A stretch of 60,008 nucleotides of DNA, counting the filler, from Basidiobolus ranarum (Eukaryota), in NCBI GenBank assembly GCA_040143965.1. It is 12 parts of 12 records of this genome, joined end to end, with 100 filler letters (N's around TTAATTAATTAA, not from the genome) between each part and the next. Parts side by side here need not be neighbours in the genome. Positions count along the whole stretch, not along the records: positions 5,026 to 9,948 come from JASJQH010001782.1; 11 more parts are not named here. The stretch is one strand, 5' to 3'. The translations under genes were made by a program, and so were the position numbers. Positions 5,026 to 60,008 of the stretch are shown piece by piece. The notes under the pieces are model-generated. The model was not told the DNA's origin, did not search any database, and worked only from the letters and a program-made list of their open reading frames with translations. Positions within the stretch are counted from its first letter, which is position 1, and each line of letters starts with the position of its first letter.

Positions 5026-6264
5026 ATTTGATGCTGAGTACCATTCGGGTGTATGGATAAACATTGAATTCTCACTCAATTAATCGCGTTACAAGTGAAT
5101 GAAGTGTGTATAATGCATTAGTAAAACGTCGATTAAATACTTTGATTGACTTAAACTATTATGAATACTTCTGTCTTCTAAGCAACTCAATCACAACTCT
5201 GTTATCAAGGCTTTGATAAGTCTTTAACTTGGTCATCTTTTGATGATTCTCCGCTTTTGATCCACTGTTAAGGATTCTCTACACACTTTCTGCTTTTGTC
5301 ATGCTTTGGCTGCAGGGAGAATGGAAATCATGGGTTTGAATCTAGAATCATCGGTCAGCGTATGTCATTCATCAATAAGTTAACAATCCAAAAAAGGAAT
5401 TTTCGATAGAGTCCCTATCTTTAATTGTGCGCATACTTACATGCGATGAACTTCTAAAAACAGCTATGTTCCCAAGAGAAAGTAACAAGTGTGAAAGAGT
5501 CTAATTAGAATGATAAGCCTGTTACTTGTTACGGCGAAGTGGAGCCACACGTAACCTACATTCTCTTTTAACTTTACCACAGTCGCTATTGCTTTGGAAT
5601 TGTTTGGCTATTTAAAAAAAAAGTTGATGTACTTATTACCTCTATAATTTCAACATCTCTTTAATGGTTCATCATCGACTATTTAATTACCAATTACTCC
5701 ATATATAGATGTGATCTTTTAGTTACCGAGTCGTTGGAATACTACTCTGCATATTGAACCGGTGTTTCCTATACTCGGCTGGAGTAGATGCTATGACTTC
5801 CACATCTTCATTGTTATTCGTTAGGCGGTATCTTATATTACCTATCCGTCACTAACATGTTAAATAAATGAGTTCTCTTTGTATTCAATATTGGCGTAGT
5901 ACTCGCCTGATCTTTGCAATGTATCGTTGTACTTAATTTACGTTACAATAAATTCAAAACCGCCGTTGTCTAGATGGGAAGAACGAGATAGACTGTCAAA
6001 TCGAGTGGGAATATCTGTTCTTTTTATTCTTTGTTAGCTGAATTCATTGAATGCTCACAGATTGAGTGTGTTTTGATGATGGATTCAAATTCGTAATCCC
6101 ATATATCACCGTCGTAAGTATATACAAATCTAATGCACAAGATAGTTCATTTCTTGCTTTACTTTATTTAGTAACTAGTAGTATAGTTGATTCTGTGGCT
6201 GTAAAAATGACAGGCGAATCCGTAGAGAAATAACGCTTTCATAACCATAAACAAACAGTTGGAC

Positions 6265-6561
6265 TCAGCAAACAATGAAGATGCTCTTCCAACCATAACT
6301 GGATGATTGCTCAGAGTTTGCATCACTCTTTAATACTGAATGGGCGGCTCCGCTACATCCAGATGCATTATAGACACGTCCACTTTGGCCCTCAGCGTAC
6401 CACTTGTAACTACCTCTGTAGGGAATGGAAGAGCAGCCACATTTTCCAATGCTCTTACTAGATCCAGAATAATGACCCCCGGAGTAAGCTACAAAATTGC
6501 TAGCATAGGCGGAAGTGCAGAGAAGAGTGGCAGCAATAGCGTAGAGACTGATGCGGACCAT
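6265..6561 (-). CDS. Secreted MiAMP1-like (beta-barrelin) antimicrobial peptide, copy 1
   Basis: 20-aa signal peptide ending AYA. The mature chain has KCGCS, GQSGRVYNASGCSGAAH and C-terminal GWKSIFIVC, matching the recalled plant MiAMP1 motifs KCGCS, GQTAALYNQAGCSGVAH and GWKSIFIQC. TATAAAA at 6597-6603 (- strand). Confidence 0.88.
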   Translation of the reverse strand: MVRISLYAIAATLLCTSAYASNFVAYSGGHYSGSSKSIGKCGCSSIPYRGSYKWYAEGQSGRVYNASGCSGAAHSVLKSDANSEQSSSYGWKSIFIVC

Positions 6562-8758
6562 TATGTGGAATGAAGATTACCAAGGCGGTGCTCCCTTTTT
6601 ATAACTCTCAAAGCTCCGCCATGTAGTAAATAGAGTAAAAGATCACCGACTCTCAAATATAGCTCATGTACGATGTACTACCACTTGATTAGTACTATAC
6701 ATAAATATATTTACGTTGTCCAGAAATGGCCCTACCTCTCCAACCAACAATACCGTTGAATAACACCTATGTTTTATGTATTAGTCATATACTCTTTCAA
6801 CTAAAAAGATTGCTCATTCTTCTTCATCATCACTGGAGCACCAATTTCTGAATGTACTCAATAGCTAACTAGTGTGCAACTGCTGGTACTCTTATTCTTA
6901 TCAACACAGCTGAAATTCTGAAAGTAGTTGTTGTAATATCCCACTCATCCTTCACCTCATGCTGCGTATTGATACCCTATTTGGGATCTGCACTCTCATC
7001 ATCAGTTTCATATTACCGCAAATACTCACGAAATGGGTCAGGATTGACAAAGGAGGCCAACTACCTTCTACCTCCTCTTTAGAGCTTTATAATCTCGCTC
7101 TAACTAATTTTCTATATCTGTGCTGACCCTCCCCCAGTGCCATATTAATCTGATTCGGTGTTCCATTAGCAGGAATCCACTTATTAATAGAGATTCTTTA
7201 CTTGGAGTTTTATATCACGATATAAGTTAATCTCTTCATAAGTGTGATCAATATTTGGGTAGTACGGATCTATGTGTTGGTGTTTATGGTAGTTAGTAAG
7301 TTTCTCCGGATTCACTGCACTATTTTATATCGCATAAGCGAGATATTCCATCACAAGTAGTGACCACGAATTGGTTCCCATTTTAATAGGATATACATGG
7401 TACACCTTAGTTTGGTACGAGCATACTCAAGGACCGACTGTCAGAGACAGTATGACTCCAAGTGAGTATGTATTGGAAAATGATATGTATAAATGATCAT
7501 TTCAATGCTATACTAAATCAAAGTCTAACGTATTCATATCGTATTCATATATACGATGACTCTTTGCATGGGTCAGAAGTAAAATCCCACAAATGGAATC
7601 AACAAACAAGTTTACCATTTGGAAATACAATATTTATGTTAAATACTATGATCACATGATTAACCAGAATCAATCGACTTCGTACAAATTGATTTACTGC
7701 AGATATTGATGCGCATACATGTTACCAGTGGTGGCGAATGTACAAAAGATATATATAAGTTTGTGTAAGCGTTTTAGAAGTTATCTTGAGCTAGGCCTAG
7801 CCGAATTATTTTATTATTTGGTTAGTAGTGTTATTTGTAACAATATGAGAAGGCTTTTGTTTAATAACATCTAACCCATAGTTGCTATATATTAATTCAT
7901 ACAAGTGTAAGAAATATAGCGATAATTGACATTAAAAGCATGAAGCAACACAGTGGATAGTTACATGAATACGAAAAATAACTTACTATCAATAAGTTTT
8001 ACTTTCAGAAAGATGAAAAGAAATCCTTTTTTGCATATATGCACTATTCAATCCACTTGGCACATATATTTCGGTCTTTGCCCTAGTAAAATGACTCGTG
8101 TTACGTATACTCAAGTATGCCACTAGCAAACTACCACAGGAATGACACAGCTTCACGCAGAGACTATCTTCACTATTCCTTAGTCAGAATCTGGTATTGA
8201 TAGATTAAATCAATGTGTGTTTCGTATGCAAAGTTATTGCAATACTCGCTTAATCTATGGAATGTATCTTTGCGCTTAATTTTTAATAAATTTAGAATCG
8301 GCATAGTCTGGATGGGAAAAAAGAAGTATACTTTCAGATCGAGGGGAAATATCAATCCCTTTTATTTGTTGCACTCATTGAATGCTACTGATTGAGTGTG
8401 TTTTATTGATGCATTCAGACTCATAATCTCATATATTACTATCAATGTGAACATAAAGGGTGCTAACAAGCTAGTTTAATTAGTGGATACGTTCACTTAG
8501 AAAATTACCGACCTACTTTGCGTGTCCCGCCTGGAAGTAGGAACTGAAGTTGAAAGCACCGTAAGATACACTGTTACTATTCAGATATATTCAAATCTAA
8601 TACTGGTAAGATAATCCATCTCTTAGATCAACTAACATGTGATAATTTGACCATGTTTTATTTGATAATTGGTAGTATGCTCGAGTCAGTGATTGTAAAA
8701 ATTACAAGCGAATACATAGGGAGATAATGCTTCCATTACCATAAGCAAATAGTTGGAC

Positions 8759-9055
8759 TCAGCATACGATGAAAATACTCTTCCAGCCATAACTCGATGA
8801 TTGCTCAGAGTTTGCATCACTCTTTAATACGGAGTGCGCAGCTCCGCTACATCCAGATCCATTATAGACACGTCCACTTTGGCCCTCAGCGTACCACTTG
8901 TAACTACCTCTGTAGGGAATGGAAGAGCAGCCACACTTTCCAATGCTCTTGCTAGATCCAGAATAATGACCTCCGGAGTAAGCCACAAAGTTACTAGCAT
9001 AGGCGGAGGTGCAGAGAAGAGCGGCAGTAATAGCGTAGAGATTGATGCGGACCAT
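8759..9055 (-). CDS. Secreted MiAMP1-like antimicrobial peptide, copy 2
   Basis: Same as copy 1 except for 3 signal-peptide changes and mature A46G. TATAAAA at 9091-9097 (- strand). Confidence 0.88.
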   Translation of the reverse strand: MVRINLYAITAALLCTSAYASNFVAYSGGHYSGSSKSIGKCGCSSIPYRGSYKWYAEGQSGRVYNGSGCSGAAHSVLKSDANSEQSSSYGWKSIFIVC

Positions 9056-10113
9056 CTTGTTGAATGAAGATTACCAAAGCGATGCCTCCTTTTTATAACT
9101 CACAAAACCCCACCATGTAGCAAATATGGCAAATGATCTCTCGCTGCTAAATATATTTCGTGTAAAGGTATGTTACCCTAACTTGAGTAAAAATATTACT
9201 TGATATTAACCTTCGTACTGTATATTCAAATTGTGCGAAACCGGTAAAAGCCACTCAGTCAACATTCGTATTTTCCGTCCATGACAGTTACCGCCCAATA
9301 ATTATATTCACCATAATAGTCAGACACTATCTGCAAAAGACACAATACCTCTACTCCCACACTCGAGTGCTAATTGCTAAACGTACTTGAGGACTTCAGC
9401 AAATGTTAGCAATTGTATTCTTATCAGCAACGAAAGAAATCTTGACAGTAATTGTTGTTTTGCTCCACTCATCCTTCACTTCATGCAGCTTACTGATACC
9501 CTATTTGGGATTTACACTCTCATTATCAGCTTCATATTACCGCACATACTCACGAAATGAGGCAGGATTGATAAAGCAGACTGACCATAATCTACGTTCA
9601 CTTTGGATCTTGATGATATCTCACCCTTTCACTCTAACCTCTTTTCTAGATCAGGGTTGCCCCCCAGTGGTATATAAATATAATCTAGTTTGTCACTAGC
9701 AGGAATTAACTTGCTAATAATGAATCTTTATTTGGAGGTTTATATCGTGACAGAGTTATTCTTTCCATACATGTGAGTAATATTTAAGTAGAGCAGGTAC
9801 ACTTGCTATCGTTTCTGGTGCTCTGTACTTGGAGTTGGTTGCCCTAGATCCATTACAATATTTCATAATCAAGATATTGCGCAACAATGAATGACCGCGA
9901 ATCGATTCCCTACCTTAATAGGTTATATATGGTACAGCCAATTTTGGTNNNNNNNNNNNNNNNNNNNNNNNNNNNNNNNNNNNNNNNNNNNNTTAATTAA
10001 TTAANNNNNNNNNNNNNNNNNNNNNNNNNNNNNNNNNNNNNNNNNNNNAGCAATTTCATTACACCAAGTTTACCATCTGAAAATTTCAATGCCATTCAAA
10101 AAGCGTTCAAAAT

Positions 10114-17048: not shown

Positions 17049-17969
17049 TTAATGGTGTCTTAAGTCCAGAGCTCTCAATGGATATCTTTGAGTATGAGGG
17101 TATTGAGAATTAATCAAGATTTTGACAACTTTGCCTAACTTTGATGGAGGCCCACATAATGATTTTCCTCTATACTTTCCTGCTACAATGCTACTTCTCT
17201 TGAGTAAACCAAAGCTATGTTCTACTCTGGCTCTAAAATGGGAAAAAATGTCATCATACAGCTTTTGCCTCTCTGTGAGTATCCCTCCTCTGGGCCTCTT
17301 GTTAGCAGTGACACATTGTAGCCTTCTGCATTCTTCCCCAACATATGCCAAATCAGCCATAGTCTTCCCATATCTTACAAATAGTGCATGCCTCTCAACC
17401 TAAAGTCTTTTGTCATGGCGTCTCCCTCAATGTGGCCCACTAAACCAAATGATGTTTCCATCTAAATTGGTCAAAGCCTGGAACTTTACACAGTGGGCTT
17501 TGTACTTGCCAGAATAGATTAGCATTTGGTTGCTTGTGGGCCTGTTAATTCTGACTGGAAATGTGTTGAGAATACTTCTGATATGAACTCTATTGGGAAA
17601 TACTCCTGGAAATGAAAGGAAATTAGTGTCTCTAAATCTTCTGTCCCAGGCATCTTCAACATCATTCATCACTGAAGCTAGAAAATTCTCACTTACTTGA
17701 AGCCTGGTATGGAAGCTTCTCCCACTTTTGCTACCATTAATAGTGCACTGAAATATGATTGGACAATCGTTTTTGTGGTAACAAAACACATTGACTAGCT
17801 GCTTTCTGGTTGGTGTTGGAGTATATGAGCCACCGTATTTCTCAAATATAGCTTCTAGGGTGGTAATAGGAAAGCTGGTAGTTGCTTTTGGATTAATGAG
17901 GATTGACTTTTTAGAGTAGATGGAGAGCATGATATTAATCTTGTGTTGAGCTGGCACAATACTGATCAA
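17049..17969 (-). pseudogene. DDE_Tnp_4 (IS5/PIF-Harbinger/ISL2EU-like) transposase remnant
   Basis: One frame: IL(D>N)TFPVRINRP...YSGKYKAHCVKFQALTNLDGNIIWFSGPH*GRRHDKRL*...MADLAYVG...RARVEHSFGLLKR; two in-frame stops. Confidence 0.85.
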
Positions 17970-18313
17970 TATGGTGCATACAAGTTATTTCTCTAAGAAT
18001 TTCAATTATCATGGTAAAATTCCCTACATTCTGTAAAATAAAATTTCTGTTGGCATTTATTATCCTAATAATTTGATTATGTGTAATTTCATGGAAATTA
18101 TATAATAAATTGCATCAGCAAAATTAGTCATGGTTTGATCCAAATCAATTTATTTAGCATACATATTGAAAAGGCTCAAAGCAAAATGCATTATGCTTGA
18201 TCACACTATAGGAAATTAACTTTGACATTTGAACCAATAATAAATAAAGATCCCTAATACTGATTGAAACCAATAAAGTATAACATCCTAGATATATATG
18301 GTAGTTACATATC

Positions 18314-20087: not shown

Positions 20088-23000
20088 AAAGGCTTAAAGG
20101 AGAGTTTCCGCAGTGCTAAAGACTACTGACAAATGACATAAGGTATGGTGTCAAGATGCGAGTGGTATGGGATGCACTAAAAGGACTGTCAGCACAGTCC
20201 TCAAGTCTCCTGAAAAATGATCAAGAGAATAGTGCCAAAAAAAAGTGGGTATGGGAAACACCTAAAGCAGAGTCCACGCAGTGCTAAAAACTACTGACAA
20301 ATGACAAAGAGTATAGTGTCAAGAAACCAGCGGTATGTGGCACACTAAAAGCAAAGACTTACGAACCAGTACGAGCAAATCAGCGTTAAGCTTTGGTCAT
20401 TCCACGCACACTTGATTACATTGAACCCGCATCATCAAAAGTTTACTTCAAAATAAGTAACTTGTCCTATGCCTGTACTTAAACAAGCTTGCAAAGAACT
20501 CAGGTTTAAATACGTCAGGGTCAGTATAAATATCATCGAGTTAGTCAAAGCTAATATGACCTGACCATTTGGATGTGGCTTGACTTTATGTTTTGTGACT
20601 TGTAACAGTTACGTTGTTGGTATACTCTGTTTAAATGTTATGCAAAACATTTGTTGATTATGTAAACCTATATATGTTACGATAGGTTTGCAAAAGAATC
20701 AAAGGAGAGTCTACGCAGAGATAAAGAGAACTAATAAATGACAATGGGTATGGAAGACTGCTTACAAACGATGAAAGGTATGGTAAGGATATGGTACCAA
20801 GAAATGAGCGGTATGGAAAATACTTAAAGGAGAGTATACGGAGAGCTAAAGACCATTGACAAATGATGCAGAGTATGGTGCCACAAACGACGGGAATGGG
20901 AAACATTTAAAGGAAAGCCTATAAAGTGGTAAAGAAGTGCCAAAGACTACTGAAAACGACGAAGGGTATGGTGATAACAAACAACTGGTACAGAAAACAC
21001 TTAAAAGAGAGTCTGGGCAGAGCTGAAGGCTACTGGCAAGCGATGAAGGGTATGGTGCCCAGCACTAAGCGTTAGGGAAACACTTAAAGAATAGTCTATG
21101 ACGAGTAAATGATGCTGACAAGTGACAATTGACAAATGATGAAGGGTATGGTGATAACAAATGTCGGGTATGGGAAACACTGATAGCGAAGTCCACTAAG
21201 AGCTAGAGCCTGCTGACAAAAGACAAAGGGTATGGTGATAACAAACGCCCGGTTTGGGAAAGGCTTAAAGGAGAGTTTATGAAGTGCCTAAGACTACTGA
21301 AAGGTGATAATGAGCATAGTGCCAGGAATAACAGGTGTGAAAAACACTTAAAGAAGAGTTTACGTAGCGCTAGAACCTACTGGAAAATGGAACCTATACA
21401 GTGCGAGGACTATTGGCAAATATTGAAGGGTATGGGGCCAAGAAACGACGAGTATGGGAAACACTTAAAAGAGAGTCTAGAAATAATGGGTTTAGGAAAC
21501 GCTTAAAGTTTAGTTCAAAAGGTGCTAGAGACAACTTACATATGACAAATTATATGGTGCCGTGAAAAGACGGGTATGGAAAACATTTAAAGAAGAGTCT
21601 ACCAAGCGCGAAAGACTACTGCTGAGTGACAAAGGTTATGGTACCAAGAAACGAGGGGTATGGGAAAATCTTACTGACAAATGACAAAAGGTATGATGTC
21701 TACAAACAAGCGGTATGGGACACACTCAAAAGAGAATCCACGCAGTGCTATATGATGCCAAGAAACCACTGGTATGGGAAACACTAAAACCAAAGTTTAT
21801 ACAGTGCTAACGGCCATTTACAAATGATGAAGGGTATGGTGACAACAAACAATGAGTATGAAGAACACTTAAAAAAAGTGTATGTAATGTTAAAAACCAC
21901 CGATAAGTGACAAAGAGTATGGTGCTAAGAAACAATGGATTTGGAAAGCACTTAAAGTAGAGTCCACAAAGGGCTAGGAAACATTTAAAGTAGATGCTAC
22001 AAAGTGCAAAACCTATTTATAAGAGAGAAAAGTATGCTGCCAAAAACCAAACGGTATGGGAAACACTTGTAAAAGAGTTTACGAGCCTTAAGGACTGCTC
22101 ACAAATGATAAAAGGTATGGTGTTAATAAACGACGGATATGAGCAACACTTTAAGAAAAGTCTACAAAGCACTAAATACTATTGACAAATGATGAAGGGT
22201 ATGGTGATAGCAAATGTCGGGTACGGGTAACATTAATAGCGAAGTCTACTAAGAGCTAAAGCCTGCTAACAAAAGACAAAGGGTATGGTGATAACAAACG
22301 TCCAGTATGGGAAACACTTAAAGAAGAGTTTATAAAGTGCTAAAGACTGGTGAAAAATGAAAAAGAGTAAGGTGATAACAAACAAAGGGTAGGGGAAATA
22401 CTTAATGGATAAATGATGGGTATGGAATATGTTTAAGGTTGGGTGTACGAAGTGCTAAAGACTACTGACAAACGACAAATGGTAGGGTGCCACAACAAAC
22501 CAAGGGTAGGGGAAACACTTACTGGATAGTCTACAAAGTGCTAAAGATAACTGACAAATGATATAGGGTATGATGATAACAAACTTTGGGCGTGGGAACT
22601 ACTTAAAGAAGAGTCTACGAAGCGTGAAGACTGCTGACAAGCAAATGTCGGGTACGGGAAACACTAATAGCGAAGTCTACTAAGAGCTAAAGCCTGCTGG
22701 AAAAAGACAAAGGGTATGGTGATAACAAACTCCCGGTATGGGAAAGGCTTAAAGAAGAGTTTATAAAGTGCTAGAGACGATGGGAAACACTGATAGCAAA
22801 GTCTACGAAAAGGTATACACTGCTGATATGTGACAAACTGTATGGTCATACAAAACGTTGGGTTTGGGAGGGCACTAAAAGGAGAATGAGTCTACGAAGT
22901 GGTAAAGAATTGCTAAAGACTACTGCCAAGTGACAAATGGTACGGTGATCACTTACAAGAGAGTTTGCGAAGTGCGAAAGACTACTGAGACATGACGGAA

Positions 23001-24370
23001 GGTATGGTCGTAGCAAACAAGCGGTATGAGAAACATTAGAAACAATGGGCATGGGAAACATTAGAAACAACGAGTATGGGAAGTACTTCAAGCAGTAAAC
23101 GATGGGTATGGAAAATGTTTAAGGTCGAGTTTACGAAGTGCTAAAGACTACTGACAAACGACAAATGGTATGGTGCCATTAAACGACGGGTATGGGAAAC
23201 ATCCAAAAAAAGACTATAAAGTGCCAAAGACATAACGATTCCTCTTTCGCACTATTGGTTCTGGTTTAACTCTGTTCGAAGCAAAGTTATTGGTACTTCA
23301 TCTTAATTGATTATCATAGCTATTTTAACTTTTATTAAAATCAATAGTTGAACTCTTAATGAATGTCTCGTCCAAGCAAACCAAGAGTAAATAGACTTCA
23401 ATTTCAATCCAATGCGATATGTCCAACCGCTGTGCTATCATTACTCGCGCCACGAAGGAATATCAGGTATTTCCAAAAATCATTCCAGAAATTATGGGAC
23501 TATAAAATGGACCCAGTCAAGCACAGTATTAACAAGTATCCTGGGAATGATTAGTACATGGTGAGCAATCGGTGTGTGTGATCAGTCCAACTGTTAACCC
23601 AGAATTTTGCTTTGTTAATGATGCTAATCTGGAACTCAATTGTACAACGGTGCAAGTGATGAATGTGCCAAATCAGTGGTAAGATTTGGTCAGTTCATAC
23701 TTTGTCTAAAATATGACCTTGTCATTTACCACATGATTGGCTACAAACTTGATTAGATTAAAACCGCATCATTAAATAGTATCTCTAGTTAGGTTAGAAT
23801 TCACAACATGTCACATGGTCTTTGACCGTATATAAACTAATTGGTTGTGGCTTAGCTTAATCATTTGTGACTTGTAACAGGAATGTTATCGGCCAACTCT
23901 GTCCCGATGTTATGCAAAACATTAAAACCAGGCATGATACTTTGTCAACAACTTCAAATATTATGTTCATCATCTTTCAGGTGAATAAATTGCTTTTCAA
24001 TCGGATATTTCGATATTCATGTTATTAACAGATCAAGGAATAGCCTGTTAGATCATATACTGTTGTAAATACGTACAAATTTCTGGATTAAAAGCAACAA
24101 GACCACCGGCGCTAGTGATAGGTAGAAGCTACTAGAATATTCTATATGGTTGGAGGATTAGACTAATAATAGGGTTAAAATTGAAGCAAAAACAAAGGGT
24201 AAGGTGACCACAGACGACGGGTATGAGAAATACTTAGAGAAGAGTCTATGAAGTGCTAAAGATGACTGACGAATGACGAACAGTGTGGTGATAATAAACG
24301 TCGGATGTGGGAAACACTTAAAGGAAAGTCTACTAGGTCTTAAGACGCCTGACAAGTGACAAAGGGTAGG
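20088..24370 (+). repeat. Degenerate ~83-84-bp purine-rich satellite (main array 20690-23230, further units at 20088-20360 and 24185-24370)
   Basis: By-eye consensus GGGTATGGGAAACACTTAAAGGAGAGTCTACGAAGTGCTAAAGACTACTGACAAATGACGAAGGGTATGGTGATAACAAACGAC, repeated dozens of times with indels. Confidence 0.93.
20410..20662 (+). repeat. Non-satellite ~250-280-bp module, copies at ~23745-23922 (partial) and ~24577-24850
   Basis: Shared CTTGATTA.ATT.AA..CGCATCAT...TTGTGACTTGTAACAG...ATGTTATGCAAAACATT. Confidence 0.85.
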
Positions 24371-33011: not shown

Positions 33012-34646
33012 ATGTCTACTTCTCAAATTTATGGAACTTTTTCCTCTTCAGAAAAATTGGATGGAACTAATTATCAAGCTGAGAAAGTAAAAATCAAGAT
33101 GTGGCTGCAACAAAGAGGGCTTTAGGACACTGTTGTAGAAGAAAACAATGCAAAACTATCTGAACCCAACTTTTTACTCCAGGTTAAAAAAGAACAAAGT
33201 GCCTTTAACACAATTTGTCATAATGTTAAAGAAAAATTGATAATTAAATGTTCAAGAGCTAAAACTGCCAAGAAGGTATGGAAAGCCTTGGAAGACACCT
33301 ACCAAACATGTTCTGCTGACAGCAAGATGCTTCTAAGAAGACAATTCTTTAGCTCAAAGATGAAGCCAGGATAAGCCATTAAATCACTAATTGATAGATT
33401 TACTATTATAGTGGATGAAATGGAATGCATTGGAGTACCTACTACTGATCAAAGTGTCATAGTTACAGTCCTGAATAGCCTGCCACATGAGTTTCAGAGC
33501 CTAATAACTGCTCTAGAATCAAGAACTGAAAATATGACCTTAAATTATGTATTAGGCAGACTTCTGGATGAAGATATAAGCAAAATAGGATCCATCCAAA
33601 AGATTAAAGAAAATGTTTTAATAGGCTATGGGGAACCTTCATAAAAAGAGCAAAAGCACTTTAAGAAGAAAAGTAACATAATCTGTGATTACCATAAAAG
33701 AACTGGCCATTTAAACAAAGATTGCTTCAAAAGAATTGCAAAAGTAAAAAAATATACAGAATCTGGAAATGTGGTTACAACAGAAGATCAATTGTTCATA
33801 TCTGCTCTATCTATGACTGCCAACAAGGATCCTCAGACAAGGTATGTTGATTCTGGAGCCTCCCAAAATTTCACAAATGAAAAACATTGGTTAGTTGATT
33901 ATCAAGAAATCCCAAATAGAAAGGTTTTCATGGGAGATAACCATACTTTGAATGCTATTGGAATGGGAACAACTCAAGTCAATTTAGCTGGAGCTTCTGA
34001 AGAGAAAGTGTATACTGTTAAAAATGTACTTCATGTTCCAGATATTGCCAAGAAGTTAATATCTGTATGGCCACCTCAGAAGGGCTAAAATTCAATTTTG
34101 ATAAGTATGGATGCATCATCACTGAGCAAAATGGGAATTATTTAGCTTTGGGATAAAAGGATCAGAACTTATACAAACTTACATATGTTCCAAGAGGTTG
34201 ATGTTTAAATATAAGTCATTCAAATCAAGAAAGTATTCAATCATGGCATAAGAGATATGGCCATATAGGATGTAATTATTTGGGCAAAATGATCAAAAAT
34301 TGCCTAATTTCAGGAATTCAAATTAACCCCCCAACCCAAATGGAAATTTACAAGGGTTGTGTATATGGAAAACAAGCCTGGCAACTATTCAAGTGCTCTG
34401 GTTTAATCAAATCTGTCAAAAAATTGGATCCAATTCATTTGGCTTTGTGTGGACCTAAGCAAAATATATCTTTGGGCAGAAAAAGATATTTAATCACACT
34501 TGTAGATGATTATACAAGATACATTTGGGTCTACTTTATGAAAAAAAAGAAGCTCTCTCTATCTTTAGAGATTTCAAAACACTTGTGGAGACTGAAACTG
34601 GAACTAAAATCAAGAAAATACGTACTGATAATGGTGGAGACTATAC
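33012..34646 (+). mobile_element. Degenerate Ty1/copia gag-protease-integrase
   Basis: KLDGTNY gag start, VLNSLPHEFQSLITALE, decayed zinc knuckle, protease YVDSGASQ, KNVLHVPDIAKKLISV, WHKRYGH, LVDDYTRYIWVYFMK, RTDNGGDY; many stops and frameshifts. Confidence 0.93.
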
Positions 34647-35022
34647 TGTTGAAATTAACATTGCCTAAACACCTATATAGTCATATATAGCTTAGTATTT
34701 AGTCATCTTTTAATTCACTAAGATATTATCCATTATTCTCAATTGGAATTTACTTTGAATATTTTTATCAACTTAGAAGTTCTCAGATATATAGATCTTT
34801 CAAACTTCTGCTGGAAGCCCCAAACTTTGCACAAATGATCCTAGTGTCATGACTCTGATCTTGACATACTCATCCACTGCAAATAGAACTCTTCTGTTAT
34901 TAGATTACGATATCATATCTGCTGTGCCATCCCTTCTTGGCAATCTTATGTTAGTTCATCCATGTTATGTTATATGGAAGTCATGTTATTTGGAATGTTC
35001 TATGAAACACAACCAATCATAT
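34647..35022 (+). mobile_element. LTR A inserted in the integrase, itself interrupted at 34845 by LTR family C
   Basis: TGTTG start directly after RTDNGGDY codons; from 34845 (TGTCATGA) the sequence is the reverse complement of 49563-49741. Confidence 0.8.
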
Positions 35023-47922: not shown

Positions 47923-50022
47923 TTATTCAGCATTGTGCATATATTCACTAATGTCTATTCCTGCTCTTAACTTTTCAAAGCTTGAAGTTTTTTGTAATTT
48001 TGTTAGCATATCTGCAAGCATGTTTTCAGTATCACAATAAATAAAGTTCACTTCTTTGTCTTGAACTTTTGCTTGTATAATACATTGTCTTATGTCAATA
48101 TATTTCATCCTTGAGTGATGCTCAGGATGATAGGTGATCTGAATACAACTAATATTTTCTTGATATAATGGGATAGGATTACCTTGATCATATCCTTGTT
48201 GCTTGAGAAGACTTCTTTGCTATATTGCTTCATGGACAGCTCTAGAGCTTGCCATATATTCTACTACTGTAATTGATAATGCAACAGTTTGTTGTTTCTT
48301 ACAAATCCAGCCATTTGGCCCACCTGCTAGCTTAAACACATATCCATATCTGGACTTCCAATCTTCTGTGTTGTTAGCCCAGTCTGCATCAGCAAGTCCT
48401 TCCAGAACAAGTGACATGTTGTACTGCTTACTAAATTGAATTCTATGGTGTATTGTTCTTATCAGATCACACAATATATGTTTCACAGCTCTCAAATTTT
48501 CCATTGCAGGATTTTTCCATATATTTGCCTACTCTACTTTCTGCTATAGCAATATCAGGCCTAGTGACAGTTGTTGCATATATTAGACTTCCAAATGCAC
48601 TACAGTAAGGAATATATTCTATGATTTCAATATCTTCAGAGGTTTTTGGATCCATATCCCTAGTGAGTTTCACCATATGTAGTGGATATGAAGCAGTTTT
48701 ATATTCTGACATATTGAATCCATTTAAAACATCTGCTATATATTTTTCCTGCATAATAGGAAGTGTTCCAACATTGGAATATTCATATTTTTACTTTCCA
48801 AAACAATACACTAGTGATTCAAGATCTTGCATTGCAAACTTGGTAGATAGCCAGGTCCTAGTTTATTACATCAGAATTGAGCAATTACTCACTATTACAA
48901 TATCATCAACATAGAGAGCAAACATGACTATGGTGGCTTTGATTGTCTTGAAGTATATACAGTGATCAGCTTTGTTATGATGGAAGAGATGCTGTTTTGA
49001 CATACATTTCTTCAATCAGCATTCCTTGGTGGATAGCAATAGCTAAGCTTACTTTGATTGAGATAAACTTAGTAACAGGAGAAAATGTTTCATTATAGTC
49101 AGTGCCATGTCTCTGAGCTTGGCCTTTTACTACTAATCTTGCTTTGTACTGGTTGATACATCCATCTGATTGAAGTTTCAGCTTTGGCAACCATATGTCA
49201 CAATAAGGAACTGGACAAGGACTGGAAACAATGACAAGAGGCTAGAAGGCAGGAGAGTACTTGGGTGTAGACCACAGGACAAGATAAGACAAGACAGAAT
49301 AAGGAAGATACTTTGGCAAGAATCTTTATTGATAACTGGTGTTGATCAAACTGAGGTCTGATCAAGGAATACATGGGGCTTATATAGATATTGCAAGGTG
49401 AAACATAATATACTGAATGGGGAATATACTGTGGCAAGTTTGAGAGTCTGGGTGTTGGGGAGTACAAGGACCAATACAAAGAGGGATGATGCAAGGATGA
49501 TGTAAGGATGATCAGGTCACCTTCCATGGAAGGTCTTGGCAGAAATACACTATTTGTGGGATGACATGATTGGTTAGGTTTCATGGAATGTTCCAAAGAA
49601 CATGACTTCCATAAAAGGTAATCTGGACAAACTAACACAAGATTGCCAAGAACAGCTGGTATAGCAGATATGATGTCATAATCTAATAATAGAGGAGTTC
49701 TATTTGTAGTGGATCAGTATGCCAAGATCAGATTCATGACACTGTATATTTTCAATAGTTTTTTTTCCAGTAGGAAAGTCCACAAGGATCCATGTGTTAT
49801 TCTTGATAAGGGAGTGAATTTCATCATCAGTGGCTTTTCTCCATTCTGTTACTTCATCAGATTTCAGAGCCTGTGTCAAATTTTCTGGTTCAGAAAATGC
49901 TAAATGTGCAGATATATTCCACCCTGTTTCTGAATTGAATCTGGTGATTTCATGCTCTGATTAGAGACACTCAAAGTCCTTGGTAGAATAGTCTCTGGTA
50001 ATCCCACTTTGTTGCTTGGCCA
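47923..50022 (-). mobile_element. Degenerate Ty1/copia reverse transcriptase-RNase H
   Basis: NNTWILVD, YKARLVVKG, DYNETFSPV, LYVDD, TRPDIA, ADADWA, KKQQTVALS, KYIDIR, MLADMLTK. Confidence 0.95.
49196..49741 (-). mobile_element. Solo LTR family C (546 bp) inserted into copia RT
   Basis: TGTCA...TGACA termini with a degenerate 5-bp TSD (CCATA/CTGTA). Excision rejoins RT ...KKTIENIWLPKLK...; partial copy at 34845-35022. Confidence 0.8.
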
Positions 50023-55015: not shown

Positions 55016-55127
55016 NNNNNNNNNNNNNNNNNNNNNNNNNNNNNNNNNNNNNNNNNNNNTTAATTAATTAANNNNNNNNNNNNNNNNNNNNNNNNNNNNN
55101 NNNNNNNNNNNNNNNGCCGAGACTTAC

Positions 55128-55445
55128 CCAGTATGGAAGAGAAATACTAGGATTGACTGAGCGTAAAGCGTTCTCGAATTGATGAATGAAAGCTCGATGC
55201 CATGTAAAGAATGGAGCGGTTGAGTGAGCATGTGGAACATAAGTTAAATGAATATTCACTAAGCGATCGTAAGCACCGCTTTTCTTCAAGGCGTTGACTG
55301 CCTCCACGAACGCAGTCTTCTCGCCATTGGAAAGTTGCCGGAATTCTCTTCTAACAGTCATTCCGCCACATCCTTGTCCACTGATCATAGTGATCGATGT
55401 GGAAGTGAGTAGGAGAGCAAGAGCGAATTTTTTGACAAGTTGCAT
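55128..55445 (-). CDS. Secreted tyrosinase (di-copper) family protein, exon 1, copy A (rest cut)
   Basis: Signal peptide; VRREFRQLS, CuA H...AH....FFTWHR, FENALR, LPYW followed by GTAAGT donor. Confidence 0.9.
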
Positions 55446-56214
55446 GTTTAGTAAGGTGGAGTTGTATATCTGATATTGACGAGTGGAATCTTAAAAAGGG
55501 AGTTTCAAAGTTCCAACAAAGGAGTGAGAAGAAAGATTGCACAGTGAAGTGTGTAAGATATTAAACTTACCTAAGCGGTATTTATATGAAGATCTTTGCA
55601 TTCATACTACATGCATTTCTGACTAACTCCGAATGGATTGTTTTCTGAGTGCATTCCTTCCAAGCATCGATATTTGTTTACGTGAGGCGATAATTGCTAT
55701 AGTGTTTGAGATCAGATAGTTTAACTTGAACTCTGGCTAAAAGAAAATCGATCTGGGATTTATGCATCAATCAGCAATGAAATCTCATTCTCTGTGCGTA
55801 TACTGAGGTTTAGTGCCATTCACTTTTGGAGAACTGGCATCTCACGTTCGTGTACTTTCCCAAACAATAGATTGTATTTGTGAAACAATATATGGAGATC
55901 TCTCATCCAACAATGCTGCTTACCTAGCAATATAGTTTTAGAGCAACACTAAGATGTGTGAGTAATGTGGGCTGTGGTTCGTTCGTTGTGTTCCCTCCAA
56001 GTTGTTATTAAATCCTTGGACACAACCTGAAGCACTTGAGCTCTTCAGGGCATCGTTTCGCAAACATATCCAATAGTTTCAAACTTGCATTCGTGAAGGT
56101 AGGTGAGGTTTTCATTTATACAGCAATGAGGAAATTCAGTTTTTTATTGGAGTATTTTAATGTGAATCAAAGCGTCTAAAGTCACGAGGTTTAAACGAAA
56201 TCTACTGGAGCGTA

Positions 56215-58563: not shown

Positions 58564-59678
58564 TATGAATTCGTGTTTGAGGTGTTAAAACTCGAATAAT
58601 AAAAAAAGGGAATTAATAGATATTGTGTGAAAAGGGAATTTCGTGTCGTGAAATTCATTTTCAAATCAAATTCTAGTTGTTTTTTGATTTTAAATTTGGA
58701 CCAAATATTTCCAAGCCATTTCGTTTAAATAATGCTAGTCTTCATCGTTAATCTAAACCAGTAAACATGAATCTAAATAGTAACCATTTCCCAATTGACG
58801 TACGGTCAACCATGAAAGGTTCAAGCTGCAGAGAGAGAATAGAAGATGGTGGACCAAGTCTCCATGTATGTATGCGCTGAAAATTCATACTGTATCAGGT
58901 TGCTACAGTGAATCGATCTAATCAGAGATTTGCTGATGTATTCCCTTAATTTCAAATCACCCAGCAGCAACAGTGTATAAACGAGTAGCCTGCATTGACG
59001 TGTGCATGGCGAATAACTCATTCTACCGAGGTAGTTTCCCTGCTTCAAGTATGATGGCCACGTGTAGATCCATTTGCATGTGTAACGTGTGGAGAAGGAC
59101 CTTCTAGGTTGCAAACCACAAAATATCTAACAACGCTATTCAAGGAATTGTCAAATAGATTCATTCCTTTTTGTGGTAAATTATGTATGGACAGTTGGAT
59201 AATTGACTCACTTAGCATTCATTATTGATCCATTTAGCATTTATTACTGGTCCATTTAGCATTCAGATTGACGGGACTATTTATGGTTGACAATTGACAA
59301 CAATGTTGGGCAACTACCGAGGTTTTCTTCATGTACTTGGGTATAATATTGAAGTGGAAAAATACCGAAGTTTCTTTGTTGTTGAATTCACTCGGGGCCC
59401 CAACCAGAATTGACGCACGAATCTTAATTTATTTCCCTCACGTACATATAAAATATACCAAACACTCCTTTATTGATCTGCACCTACACAACAAGTTCAA
59501 GCTACTCCGAAAATAACTTTCATCGATGTAATCCTATCACAGATGATTCATATAAAAAGTAATCGTGGTATAGCCTTAGCACATCTTATCTTCAGGTCAT
59601 CCAATTCAATTAAACTTTCTTCATTCAGTTTTGTCCCCTTTTACCCGATTATACATTTACCCTAGGAAACTTGTACAA

Positions 59679-59996
59679 ATGCAATTTGCAAAAAAATTCA
59701 CTCTTGCCCTTCTCCTTGCTTCTACATCTATCACTATGGTCAGTGGACAAGGATGTGGAGGGATGCGTGTAAGAAGAGAATTTCGACAACTTTCCAATGG
59801 CGAGAAGACTGCGTTCGTGGAGGCAGTCAACGTCTTGAAGAAAAATGGCGCTTATGATCGCTTAGTGAATGTTCATTTAACCTATGTTCCACATGCTCAC
59901 TCCACCGCTCCATTCTTCCCATGGCATCGAGTTTTCATTCATCAATTCGAGAATGCTTTACGCTCAGTCAATCCTAGTATAACTTTGCCATACTGG
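59679..59996 (+). CDS. Secreted tyrosinase family protein, exon 1, copy B (rest cut; absent from ORF track)
   Basis: MQFAKKFTLALLLASTSITMVSGQGCGGMRVRREFRQLSNGEK...HAHSTAPFFPWHRVFIHQFENALRSVNPSITLPYW then GTAAGT; TATAAAA at 59551. Confidence 0.9.
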
Positions 59997-60008
59997 GTAA
60001 GTTTCGGT

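What the first reader, a model, noticed from the sequence alone, without database searches (positions are those of the whole stretch)
6265..9055. Plant-type MiAMP1 antimicrobial peptide genes in a fungal genome
Seen: two intronless secreted 98-aa genes with TATA boxes. Mature Cys fall at 21, 23, 49 and the last residue, the same register as Macadamia MiAMP1 as I recall it, and the chain ends GWKSIFIVC (MiAMP1: GWKSIFIQC). Established: the MiAMP1/Sp-AMP family is described mainly from land plants, is antifungal, and resembles the Williopsis killer toxin fold. Inference: either plant-fungus horizontal transfer or an overlooked fungal branch of the family, possibly a secreted weapon against competing fungi.
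Basis: partly seen in the sequence, partly recalled or inferred. Interest (0 to 1): 0.8.

Follow-up and report, generated by a model that had tools for sequence, protein, structure and literature searches.

The report
Fungal copies of MiAMP1 antifungal peptide
A soil and amphibian-gut fungus carries at least five near-identical genes for a small secreted peptide of a family best known as a plant antifungal, and its version looks more like the soil-bacterial form than the plant form, so it is probably a borrowed weapon against rival microbes.

Summary
Two intronless 98-aa ORFs hit Pfam MiAMP1 at 55 bits (cut-off 26) and fold like PDB 1C01 (Z 13.7, rmsd 1.2 Å). They are real fungal genes: five copies lie on four contigs, one beside fungal genes on a 35.8-kb contig, with dN/dS 0–0.12. 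One copy matches a protein named Basidiobolus ranarum.

'Plant-type' fits poorly. The peptide lacks the plant Cys11–Cys64 pair, is 45–58% identical to actinobacterial members against 42% to Macadamia MiAMP1, and sides with actinobacteria at 15 of 17 discriminating columns. Four named Mortierella proteins are related. Trees put the fungi on the microbial side, but 78 columns do not fix a donor: a Basidiobolus-plus-plant clade is not rejected (AU p 0.107 and 0.053).

The family was already reported in plants, fungi and Actinobacteria, with anti-yeast activity shown for a Streptosporangium member (PMC9903846). Best reading: a horizontally spread secreted antifungal, amplified here for dosage, perhaps binding beta-1,3-glucan, which is scarce in Basidiobolus walls. 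Activity and expression are untested. New member of a known family; moderate interest.

The parts
6265..6561 (-). MiAMP1-family gene, copy 1 (98 aa; inferred 20-aa signal peptide, 78-aa mature peptide, pI 9.0, charge +3.6, Cys 21/23/49/78)
6597..6603 (-). TATAAAA, 42 nt upstream of copy 1 ATG
   Evidence: same place in copy 2 and the C6938 copy, degenerate in the C2863 and C7653 copies
8759..9055 (-). MiAMP1-family gene, copy 2 (4 aa differ from copy 1, one in the mature peptide; 17 synonymous against 4 non-synonymous changes)
9091..9097 (-). TATAAAA, 42 nt upstream of copy 2 ATG
5860..7416 (.). Duplicated unit around copy 1 (downstream flank, gene, upstream flank); pieces match the copy 2 unit at 74%, 86% and 70% and the C7653 and C6938 units at 75-79% over 1.3-1.6 kb
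8205..9948 (.). Duplicated unit around copy 2, gene-to-gene spacing 2494 nt, same orientation, cut by the contig end
8088..8172 (.). 85-bp dispersed non-coding repeat with 23 matches on 21 other contigs of the same genome (76-84% identity); ties this contig to the host genome
5026..9948 (.). Contig G000:C1782 (4923 bp, GC 0.37), bounded by assembly linkers; no other ORF of convincing coding character

Best explanation
These are genuine, functional Basidiobolus genes for a secreted, cationic 8.2-kDa beta/gamma-crystallin-fold peptide of the MiAMP1 family, of a four-cysteine microbial subtype shared with Mortierella and some Actinobacteria. SHOWN: family, predicted fold, fungal linkage, five copies, purifying selection. 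INFERRED origin (about 0.55): horizontal gain from an actinobacterial lineage, possibly by way of another early-diverging fungus, then local duplication that keeps the mature peptide unchanged, which raises dosage. INFERRED function (about 0.75): after signal-peptide cleavage (AYA|S) and formation of Cys21-Cys78 and Cys23-Cys49 bonds it is released and inhibits competing fungi and perhaps Gram-positive bacteria. INFERRED mechanism (about 0.45): it binds wall beta-1,3-glucan as pine Sp-AMP3 does and disturbs wall assembly; the producer is spared because its wall is chitin-rich and glucan-poor.
For: Family and fold; AlphaFold pLDDT 88.5; Foldseek 1C01 E 4e-5, rmsd 1.2; Z 13.7 over 76 residues, next hits crystallins at Z 9.3 or less. 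Fungal linkage: fifth copy at the end of 35.8-kb C6938 (GC 0.37) with class II aldolase, RTA1-like, tyrosinase and HhH-GPD genes; shared non-coding flanks; dispersed repeat on 21 other contigs; GC3 0.38-0.48 against 0.39-0.52 in four host genes. Selection: dS 0.10-0.32, dN 0-0.025 over all 10 pairs. Microbial affinity: mature identity 64% to unnamed L094, 45-58% (mean 53%) to 80 of 80 GTDB loci, 42% to Macadamia, at most 43% to named six-Cys plant rows; 15 of 17 discriminating columns side with actinobacteria; six-Cys plants separated from the microbial side at 93/94 (98 rows) and 99/91 (52 named rows); all-eukaryote clade rejected in the named-only set, p 0.019. [quoted passage not shown] B. 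meristosporus wall holds only 30 ug/mg glucose against over 100 in three other Zoopagomycota (PMC11170279). Basidiobolus has many bacterial transfers, Actinobacteria among the top three donors, 61% intronless (PMC7466969).
Against: In the full set the data reject neither Basidiobolus plus six-Cys plants (p 0.107) nor all eukaryotes (p 0.164); in the named-only set the first gives p 0.053, and that set was chosen after seeing the first result. The p 0.019 rests on two long bacterial branches (S. pini, Embleya). The tree has no root. Cys23 and Cys49 are plant-like: 38 and 37 of 38 plant rows, 4 of 48 bacterial rows. The gene is patchy in bacteria (42 of 251 genomes in the order of G001, 2 of 401 in its phylum, one being G001), so bacteria may be recipients. 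The bacterial set was gathered by likeness to the query, which inflates identity and column counts; 26 of 48 bacterial and 15 of 38 plant rows were labelled by me from sequence appearance. A glucan-rich ascomycete (A. fumigatus) secretes a protein annotated PF09117 (PMC3853031), which weakens the self-immunity idea. The wall data are for B. meristosporus, not B. ranarum. Related fungal-like P0007 and P0008 are acidic (pI 4.9). No expression, secretion, binding or killing was measured.
Confidence: 0.45

Rival explanations
1. Plant-to-fungus transfer: a plant MiAMP1 gene entered an early-diverging fungus, lost Cys11/Cys64, and the two-Cys Streptosporangiales form came later from fungi or separately.
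For: Basidiobolus plus six-Cys plants is not rejected (p 0.107; 0.053). Cys23/Cys49 are kept as in plants. Two Stephania cephalantha genes on a 50-Mb chromosome are among the three best phmmer hits after self-cluster. The family is rare in Actinomycetota overall.
Against: 15 of 17 discriminating columns, including a two-residue longer loop before GWKS, are bacterial-like. Bacterial four-Cys forms (S. pini, Embleya) fall between plants and fungi in both trees (95/81 for plants plus S. pini). The Stephania pair is itself atypical, lacking Cys11/Cys64, while S. japonica has the normal six-Cys form.
Confidence: 0.15
2. Old fungal or eukaryotic family inherited vertically and lost many times; Actinobacteria took it from eukaryotes. 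No transfer into Basidiobolus is needed.
For: Members in two phyla of early-diverging fungi; fungal monophyly is not rejected (51/0; p 0.50). An Ascomycota cluster is the top language-model look-alike (0.94, a lead only). MiAMP1-like folds are predicted for Cladosporium Ecp4/Ecp7 and one Rosellinia protein; an A. fumigatus protein is annotated PF09117. All-eukaryote clade not rejected in the full set.
Against: Only five named fungal species/strains turned up (one Basidiobolus, four Mortierella) among the 25 of 63 phmmer hits whose names were seen, and a fungal-profile search added none. 50% identity to Mortierella GBA30 and 64% to L094 is high for small secreted proteins of different phyla (inference). 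All-eukaryote clade rejected in the named-only set (p 0.019).
Confidence: 0.15
3. The peptide is not a weapon but a glucan- or surface-binding protein of the fungus's own (wall coat, masking of glucan in the animal gut, spore adhesion), whatever its origin.
For: The beta/gamma-crystallin fold serves many functions. The mature sequence is frozen rather than diversifying, and is 24% serine. Fungal-like relatives are acidic.
Against: All tested family members that I read of, plant and bacterial, are antimicrobial. Charge +3.6 resembles MiAMP1 (+4.6) and the active Streptosporangium peptide (3.5).
Confidence: 0.2
4. Contamination: the contig is plant or bacterial DNA in a fungal assembly.
For: C1782 is a short contig with no other gene; read coverage could not be examined.
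Against: A paralogue with 1.3 kb of homologous upstream DNA sits on a 35.8-kb contig with fungal genes; a repeat on C1782 recurs on 21 other contigs; GC 0.37 matches the other window contigs (0.34-0.42) and is far from the 0.72 of actinobacterial locus L095.
Confidence: 0.02

Closest known systems
MiAMP1 of Macadamia integrifolia (PF09117, PDB 1C01) and conifer Sp-AMP/PR-19 peptides
   Same: Pfam hit over the whole profile; same Greek-key beta-barrel, rmsd 1.2 Å; Cys21, 23, 49 and terminal Cys; signal peptide; basic; GWKSIF end.
   Different: No Cys11-Cys64 pair; 78 rather than 76 residues; GSYKWY/GQSG in place of the plant GGYxFxY/GQTA pattern; 42% identity.
Actinobacterial PF09117 peptides (Streptosporangium, Nonomuraea, Microbispora, Actinomadura, some Streptomyces; PMC9903846)
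   Same: 45-58% mature identity; same 78-residue length and GSYKWY..GQSGR.YN and EQ...GWKSIFIVC motifs; many share the AYAS cleavage context; secreted; one member inhibits S. cerevisiae.
   Different: Most have only Cys21 and Cys78 (44 of 48 rows lack Cys23); single copy per genome in 43 of 43 positive genomes, against five here.
Mortierella PF09117 proteins (M. alpina, M. claussenii, sp. GBA30, sp. GBAus27b) and unnamed L094, P0007, P0008
   Same: Four-Cys pattern (Cys23/Cys49 in 7 of 7 rows), secreted, 32-64% identity.
   Different: Uncharacterised; different phylum; some acidic; monophyly with Basidiobolus unresolved.
Williopsis killer toxin WmKT (1WKT), Streptomyces SKLP (1F53) and AFP1 (1GH5)
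   Same: Same general beta/gamma-crystallin-like fold (Z 4.4, 5.2, 5.0).
   Different: 10-16% identity, rmsd 3.4-4.0 Å; lens crystallins score higher, so this is fold-level likeness only.

Membership tests
MiAMP1 family (PF09117) | Pfam profile score above the curated cut-off over the whole domain | tested here: met
   54.8 and 54.7 bits against 26; profile 1-76 of 76
MiAMP1 family (PF09117) | Two Greek keys forming a beta-barrel (beta/gamma-crystallin-like) | tested here: met
   Predicted model, pLDDT 88.5, eight strands listed; 1C01 top hit, Z 13.7, rmsd 1.2
MiAMP1 family (PF09117) | N-terminal signal peptide, small basic mature peptide | tested here: met
   Hydrophobic N-terminus by hydropathy only; mature 8.2 kDa, pI 9.0
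MiAMP1 family (PF09117) | Antimicrobial activity | not testable with these tools
   Shown for plant and one actinobacterial member only
Canonical plant beta-barrelins (MiAMP1/Sp-AMP) | Six cysteines in three disulfides | tested here: not met
   Four Cys; positions 11 and 64 absent
Canonical plant beta-barrelins (MiAMP1/Sp-AMP) | Falls inside the six-Cys plant clade | tested here: inconclusive
   Outside it in both best trees (93/94; 99/91); a sister position is not rejected (p 0.107, 0.053)
Canonical plant beta-barrelins (MiAMP1/Sp-AMP) | Binds beta-1,3-glucan (Sp-AMP3) | not testable with these tools
   Property read in 10.1101/127746 passages
Bacteria-to-Basidiobolus transferred gene | Integrated in fungal DNA | tested here: met
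Bacteria-to-Basidiobolus transferred gene | Nested among bacterial sequences with eukaryote monophyly rejected | tested here: inconclusive
   Bacterial rows on both sides in best trees; AU p 0.164 (98 rows) and 0.019 (52 named rows); unrooted
Bacteria-to-Basidiobolus transferred gene | Absent from most related fungi | tested here: inconclusive
   Few fungal hits, but no fungal genome panel could be searched and 38 of 63 hits were not looked up by name
WmKT/SKLP/AFP1 killer-toxin-like proteins | Detectable sequence or close structural relationship | tested here: inconclusive
   No sequence hit at E<=1; Z 4.4-5.2 only

The most novel reading that the evidence does not exclude
MiAMP1 is a microbial weapon that has moved among three kingdoms. 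Glucan-poor early-diverging fungi (Basidiobolus, Mortierella) took a beta-1,3-glucan-binding antifungal from soil Actinobacteria and can use it against glucan-rich yeasts and moulds with no immunity gene, because their wall chemistry protects them. Basidiobolus amplified it as a dosage array that may help shape the fungal community of the amphibian gut. An odd pair of Stephania cephalantha genes may be a second, later entry of the microbial form into plants.
Probability: 0.22. Interest if true: 0.72.

Novelty: new member of a known kind. Interest (0 to 1): 0.42.

Why it matters
I found no paper describing MiAMP1 genes in Basidiobolus or Mortierella (searches; open-licence library only; Fig. 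2C of PMC9903846 may include them). A natural four-cysteine version, between the two-cysteine bacterial and six-cysteine plant forms, makes the family's unsettled mode of action testable. It gives a concrete candidate for fungus-against-fungus competition by a herptile gut symbiont, a simple test of self-protection by wall composition, and a small stable antifungal scaffold. It corrects the view of the family as plant-specific, though that correction is already in print.

Tried and rejected
Word-indexed homologue search with the single protein found only its own cluster; the full HMMER scan was needed (63 hits). A fungal-profile search returned only its own input sequences (6 hits among 8000 scored candidates). 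No match in plasmids, viral contigs (0 of 108 pattern matches confirmed), NCBIfam (0 of 9 proteins) or Rfam on C1782. The metagenome scan confirmed 2 of 164 pattern matches. The UniRef label 'Lactococcin 972 family bacteriocin' on P0003 was rejected: Pfam gives only MiAMP1. The weak own-genome hit on C9070 (E 0.03) is not counted as a copy. The sigma-70 promoter scan is at chance level and irrelevant to a eukaryote. The 85-bp repeat has no common downstream ORF at eight sites checked on six contigs. Plant monophyly including Stephania cephalantha is not rejected (p 0.434). No mention of MiAMP/PF09117 in the main text of 10.1101/2021.12.02.471044, none of MiAMP in PMC7466969, PMC8778642 or PMC9391592 (11 supplements). 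The supplements of PMC7466969, which list transfer candidates, could not be read and may contain this gene. Read coverage and expression remain untested.

Full report
Observation. Both ORFs exist as described: 6265-6561 and 8759-9055 on the minus strand, 98 aa, no intron, TATAAAA 42 nt upstream of each ATG. Both match Pfam MiAMP1 over the whole profile at about 55 bits, cut-off 26, and PDB 1C01 at E 1e-12. An AlphaFold model from a 50-sequence alignment has pLDDT 88.5 and superposes on 1C01 at 1.2 Å (Foldseek E 4e-5; Z 13.7 over 76 residues). Crystallins follow at Z 9.3 or less; WmKT, SKLP and AFP1 score only 4.4-5.2. The mature peptide has 78 residues, pI 9.0, charge +3.6 and Cys at 21, 23, 49 and 78; Macadamia MiAMP1 has two more, at 11 and 64.

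Is the DNA fungal? The window is twelve short contigs joined by linkers, and the two genes are alone on G000:C1782, so this needed testing. The genome holds five copies on four contigs: C1782 (two), C2863, C7653 and C6938, the last cut by the contig end. C6938 is 35.8 kb at GC 0.37 and carries class II aldolase, tyrosinase, HhH-GPD and RTA1-like genes; RTA1 is described as a fungal family (PMC11707875 passage). The copies share non-coding flanks at 67-87% identity, over up to 1.6 kb. An 85-bp repeat between the two window genes recurs 23 times on 21 other contigs. GC3 of the copies (0.38-0.48) overlaps that of four host genes (0.39-0.52). The C2863 copy is identical to P0003, named Basidiobolus ranarum by its source. 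Contamination is very unlikely. Whether some copies are alleles is not settled.

Selection. Over all 10 pairs of copies dS is 0.10-0.32 and dN 0-0.025 (Nei-Gojobori). The mature peptide is identical in four of five copies (the truncated one as far as it goes) and differs by one residue in copy 1. The genes are being kept functional, and the array adds dosage rather than variety.

Distribution. phmmer over 1.84 billion cluster representatives gave 63 hits at E<=0.001. Names were looked up or seen for 25 of the 63; the rest I classed by appearance. Named members are land plants, Actinobacteria (Streptomyces, Embleya, Streptosporangiaceae, Pseudonocardiaceae), four Mortierella proteins and Basidiobolus. 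A GTDB scan confirmed 85 of 170 pattern matches; all 80 kept have actinobacterial record titles, mostly Streptosporangiales. The family is patchy there: 42 of 251 genomes in the order of G001 pass the cut-off, 2 of 401 in its phylum. The closest relative is unnamed metagenome locus L094 (64% mature identity; GC 0.48, low-complexity flanks, next to a GNAT gene; fungal by my inference only).

Plant-type or microbial? Mature identity is 45-58% to the 80 GTDB proteins, 48-49% to two odd Stephania cephalantha proteins, 42% to Macadamia, and at most 43% (named) or 46% (unnamed) to six-Cys plant rows. At 17 columns where bacterial (48 rows) and six-Cys plant (38 rows) frequencies of the Basidiobolus state differ by 0.4 or more, 15 side with bacteria (14 residues and one gap column) and 2 with plants; the two are Cys23 and Cys49. 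The bacterial set was partly collected by likeness to the query, and 26 of 48 bacterial and 15 of 38 plant labels are mine, so these counts lean towards bacteria. For trees, 15 of the 80 GTDB proteins were kept after dereplication at 82%, and fragments and near-duplicates among the P-proteins were left out. In the 98-row tree (79 columns) the six-Cys plants are split from the rest at 93/94; fungi and the S. cephalantha pair lie in a 51-row group with most actinobacteria (87/93), other actinobacteria lying between them and plants. AU tests on that set reject neither Basidiobolus plus six-Cys plants (p 0.107), nor all eukaryotes (p 0.164), nor all plants (p 0.434). In a later set of 52 named rows, six-Cys plants are one side at 99/91 and join S. 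pini at 95/81; all-eukaryote monophyly is rejected (p 0.019), Basidiobolus plus plants is borderline (p 0.053) and fungal monophyly is open (p 0.50). That set was chosen after the first result and has long branches. The tree is unrooted. So the peptide is of the microbial subtype, a bacterial donor is the likeliest reading, and the direction is not proven.

How it most likely works. By analogy, not test: the signal peptide is cut after AYA, two disulfides form, and the cationic beta-barrel is secreted. [quoted passage not shown] A Streptosporangium member inhibits S. cerevisiae (PMC9903846, section 10), so the 11-64 bond is probably dispensable (that peptide's sequence was not seen). B. meristosporus walls hold 30 ug/mg glucose, against over 100 in three other Zoopagomycota and up to over 400 in Dikarya, and glucose is almost absent in most Mucoromycota tested (PMC11170279, section 13). 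A glucan-binding antifungal would thus spare its producer. Against this, an A. fumigatus secretome table lists a protein annotated PF09117 (PMC3853031, passage); a putative A. fumigatus antimicrobial peptide, Afu8g00710, rises with amphotericin B and in Streptomyces co-culture; that these two are the same gene is my recollection, not checked.

Prior knowledge. PMC9903846 already reports PF09117 in a small set of soil Actinobacteria besides plant and fungal genomes, with a tree containing fungal branches. I could not see the figure, and nine supplements name neither Basidiobolus nor Mortierella (one file cut). Reviews treat the family as plant (PMC7476358, passages; PMC9828482, passages). Bacterial transfer into Basidiobolus is well documented (PMC7466969, passages; its supplements unseen). 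Searches for a description of these fungal genes found none. Other papers seen as passages only: PMC7886984, PMC3902428, PMC10796067, PMC8778642, PMC9391592, 10.1101/2021.12.02.471044, 10.64898/2026.04.05.716574.

Verdict. New member of a known kind; interest 0.42. The bolder reading, a bacterial antifungal adopted by glucan-poor fungi with wall-based self-protection, has about 0.22 probability and would merit about 0.72.

Noticed in passing
P0004, P0006 (Stephania cephalantha, 50-Mb chromosome): Two neighbouring plant genes have the microbial four-Cys-type pattern (no Cys11/Cys64, YRGSY, EGQS) and group with fungi and actinobacteria in both trees, while S. japonica has the normal form: a possible microbe-to-plant transfer. 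Plant monophyly is not rejected (p 0.434), and the gene models lack the terminal Cys.
   Followed up: partly
window 8088-8172: Conserved 85-bp non-coding element with 23 matches on 21 other contigs; no Rfam match, no common downstream ORF; conserved core inside more divergent flanks. Could be a transposon end or a regulatory element.
   Followed up: partly
G000:C6938:32476-33060 (L006:6677-7261): RTA1-like gene 2.5 kb upstream of the fifth MiAMP1 copy, same strand. RTA1 proteins give resistance to toxic compounds; a link to self-protection is untested.
   Followed up: no
G000:C9070:3234-3446 (L013): Small secreted cysteine-containing protein with a weak match (E 0.03, 30% identity), probably another crystallin-fold protein.
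   Followed up: no
L094:1-306 and 1589-1879: Closest relative (64%) lies on a eukaryote-like metagenome contig next to a GNAT acetyltransferase gene.
   Followed up: partly
window 20088-24362: Long degenerate array with an 84-bp period and strong AT/GC skew, no long ORF.
   Followed up: no
window 17049-17984, 33645-34690, 48220-48790: Transposon-like remnants (DDE-transposase-like and copia-like fragments, by eye).
   Followed up: no
window 55117-55450 and 59674-60007; G000:C6938:3771-5150: Several related tyrosinase-like secreted genes, with an 89% inverted match across a contig boundary in the window.
   Followed up: no
whole window: The window is twelve separate 4.9-kb contigs sorted by length and joined by N-TTAATTAATTAA-N linkers; gene order across linkers has no meaning.
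   Followed up: yes
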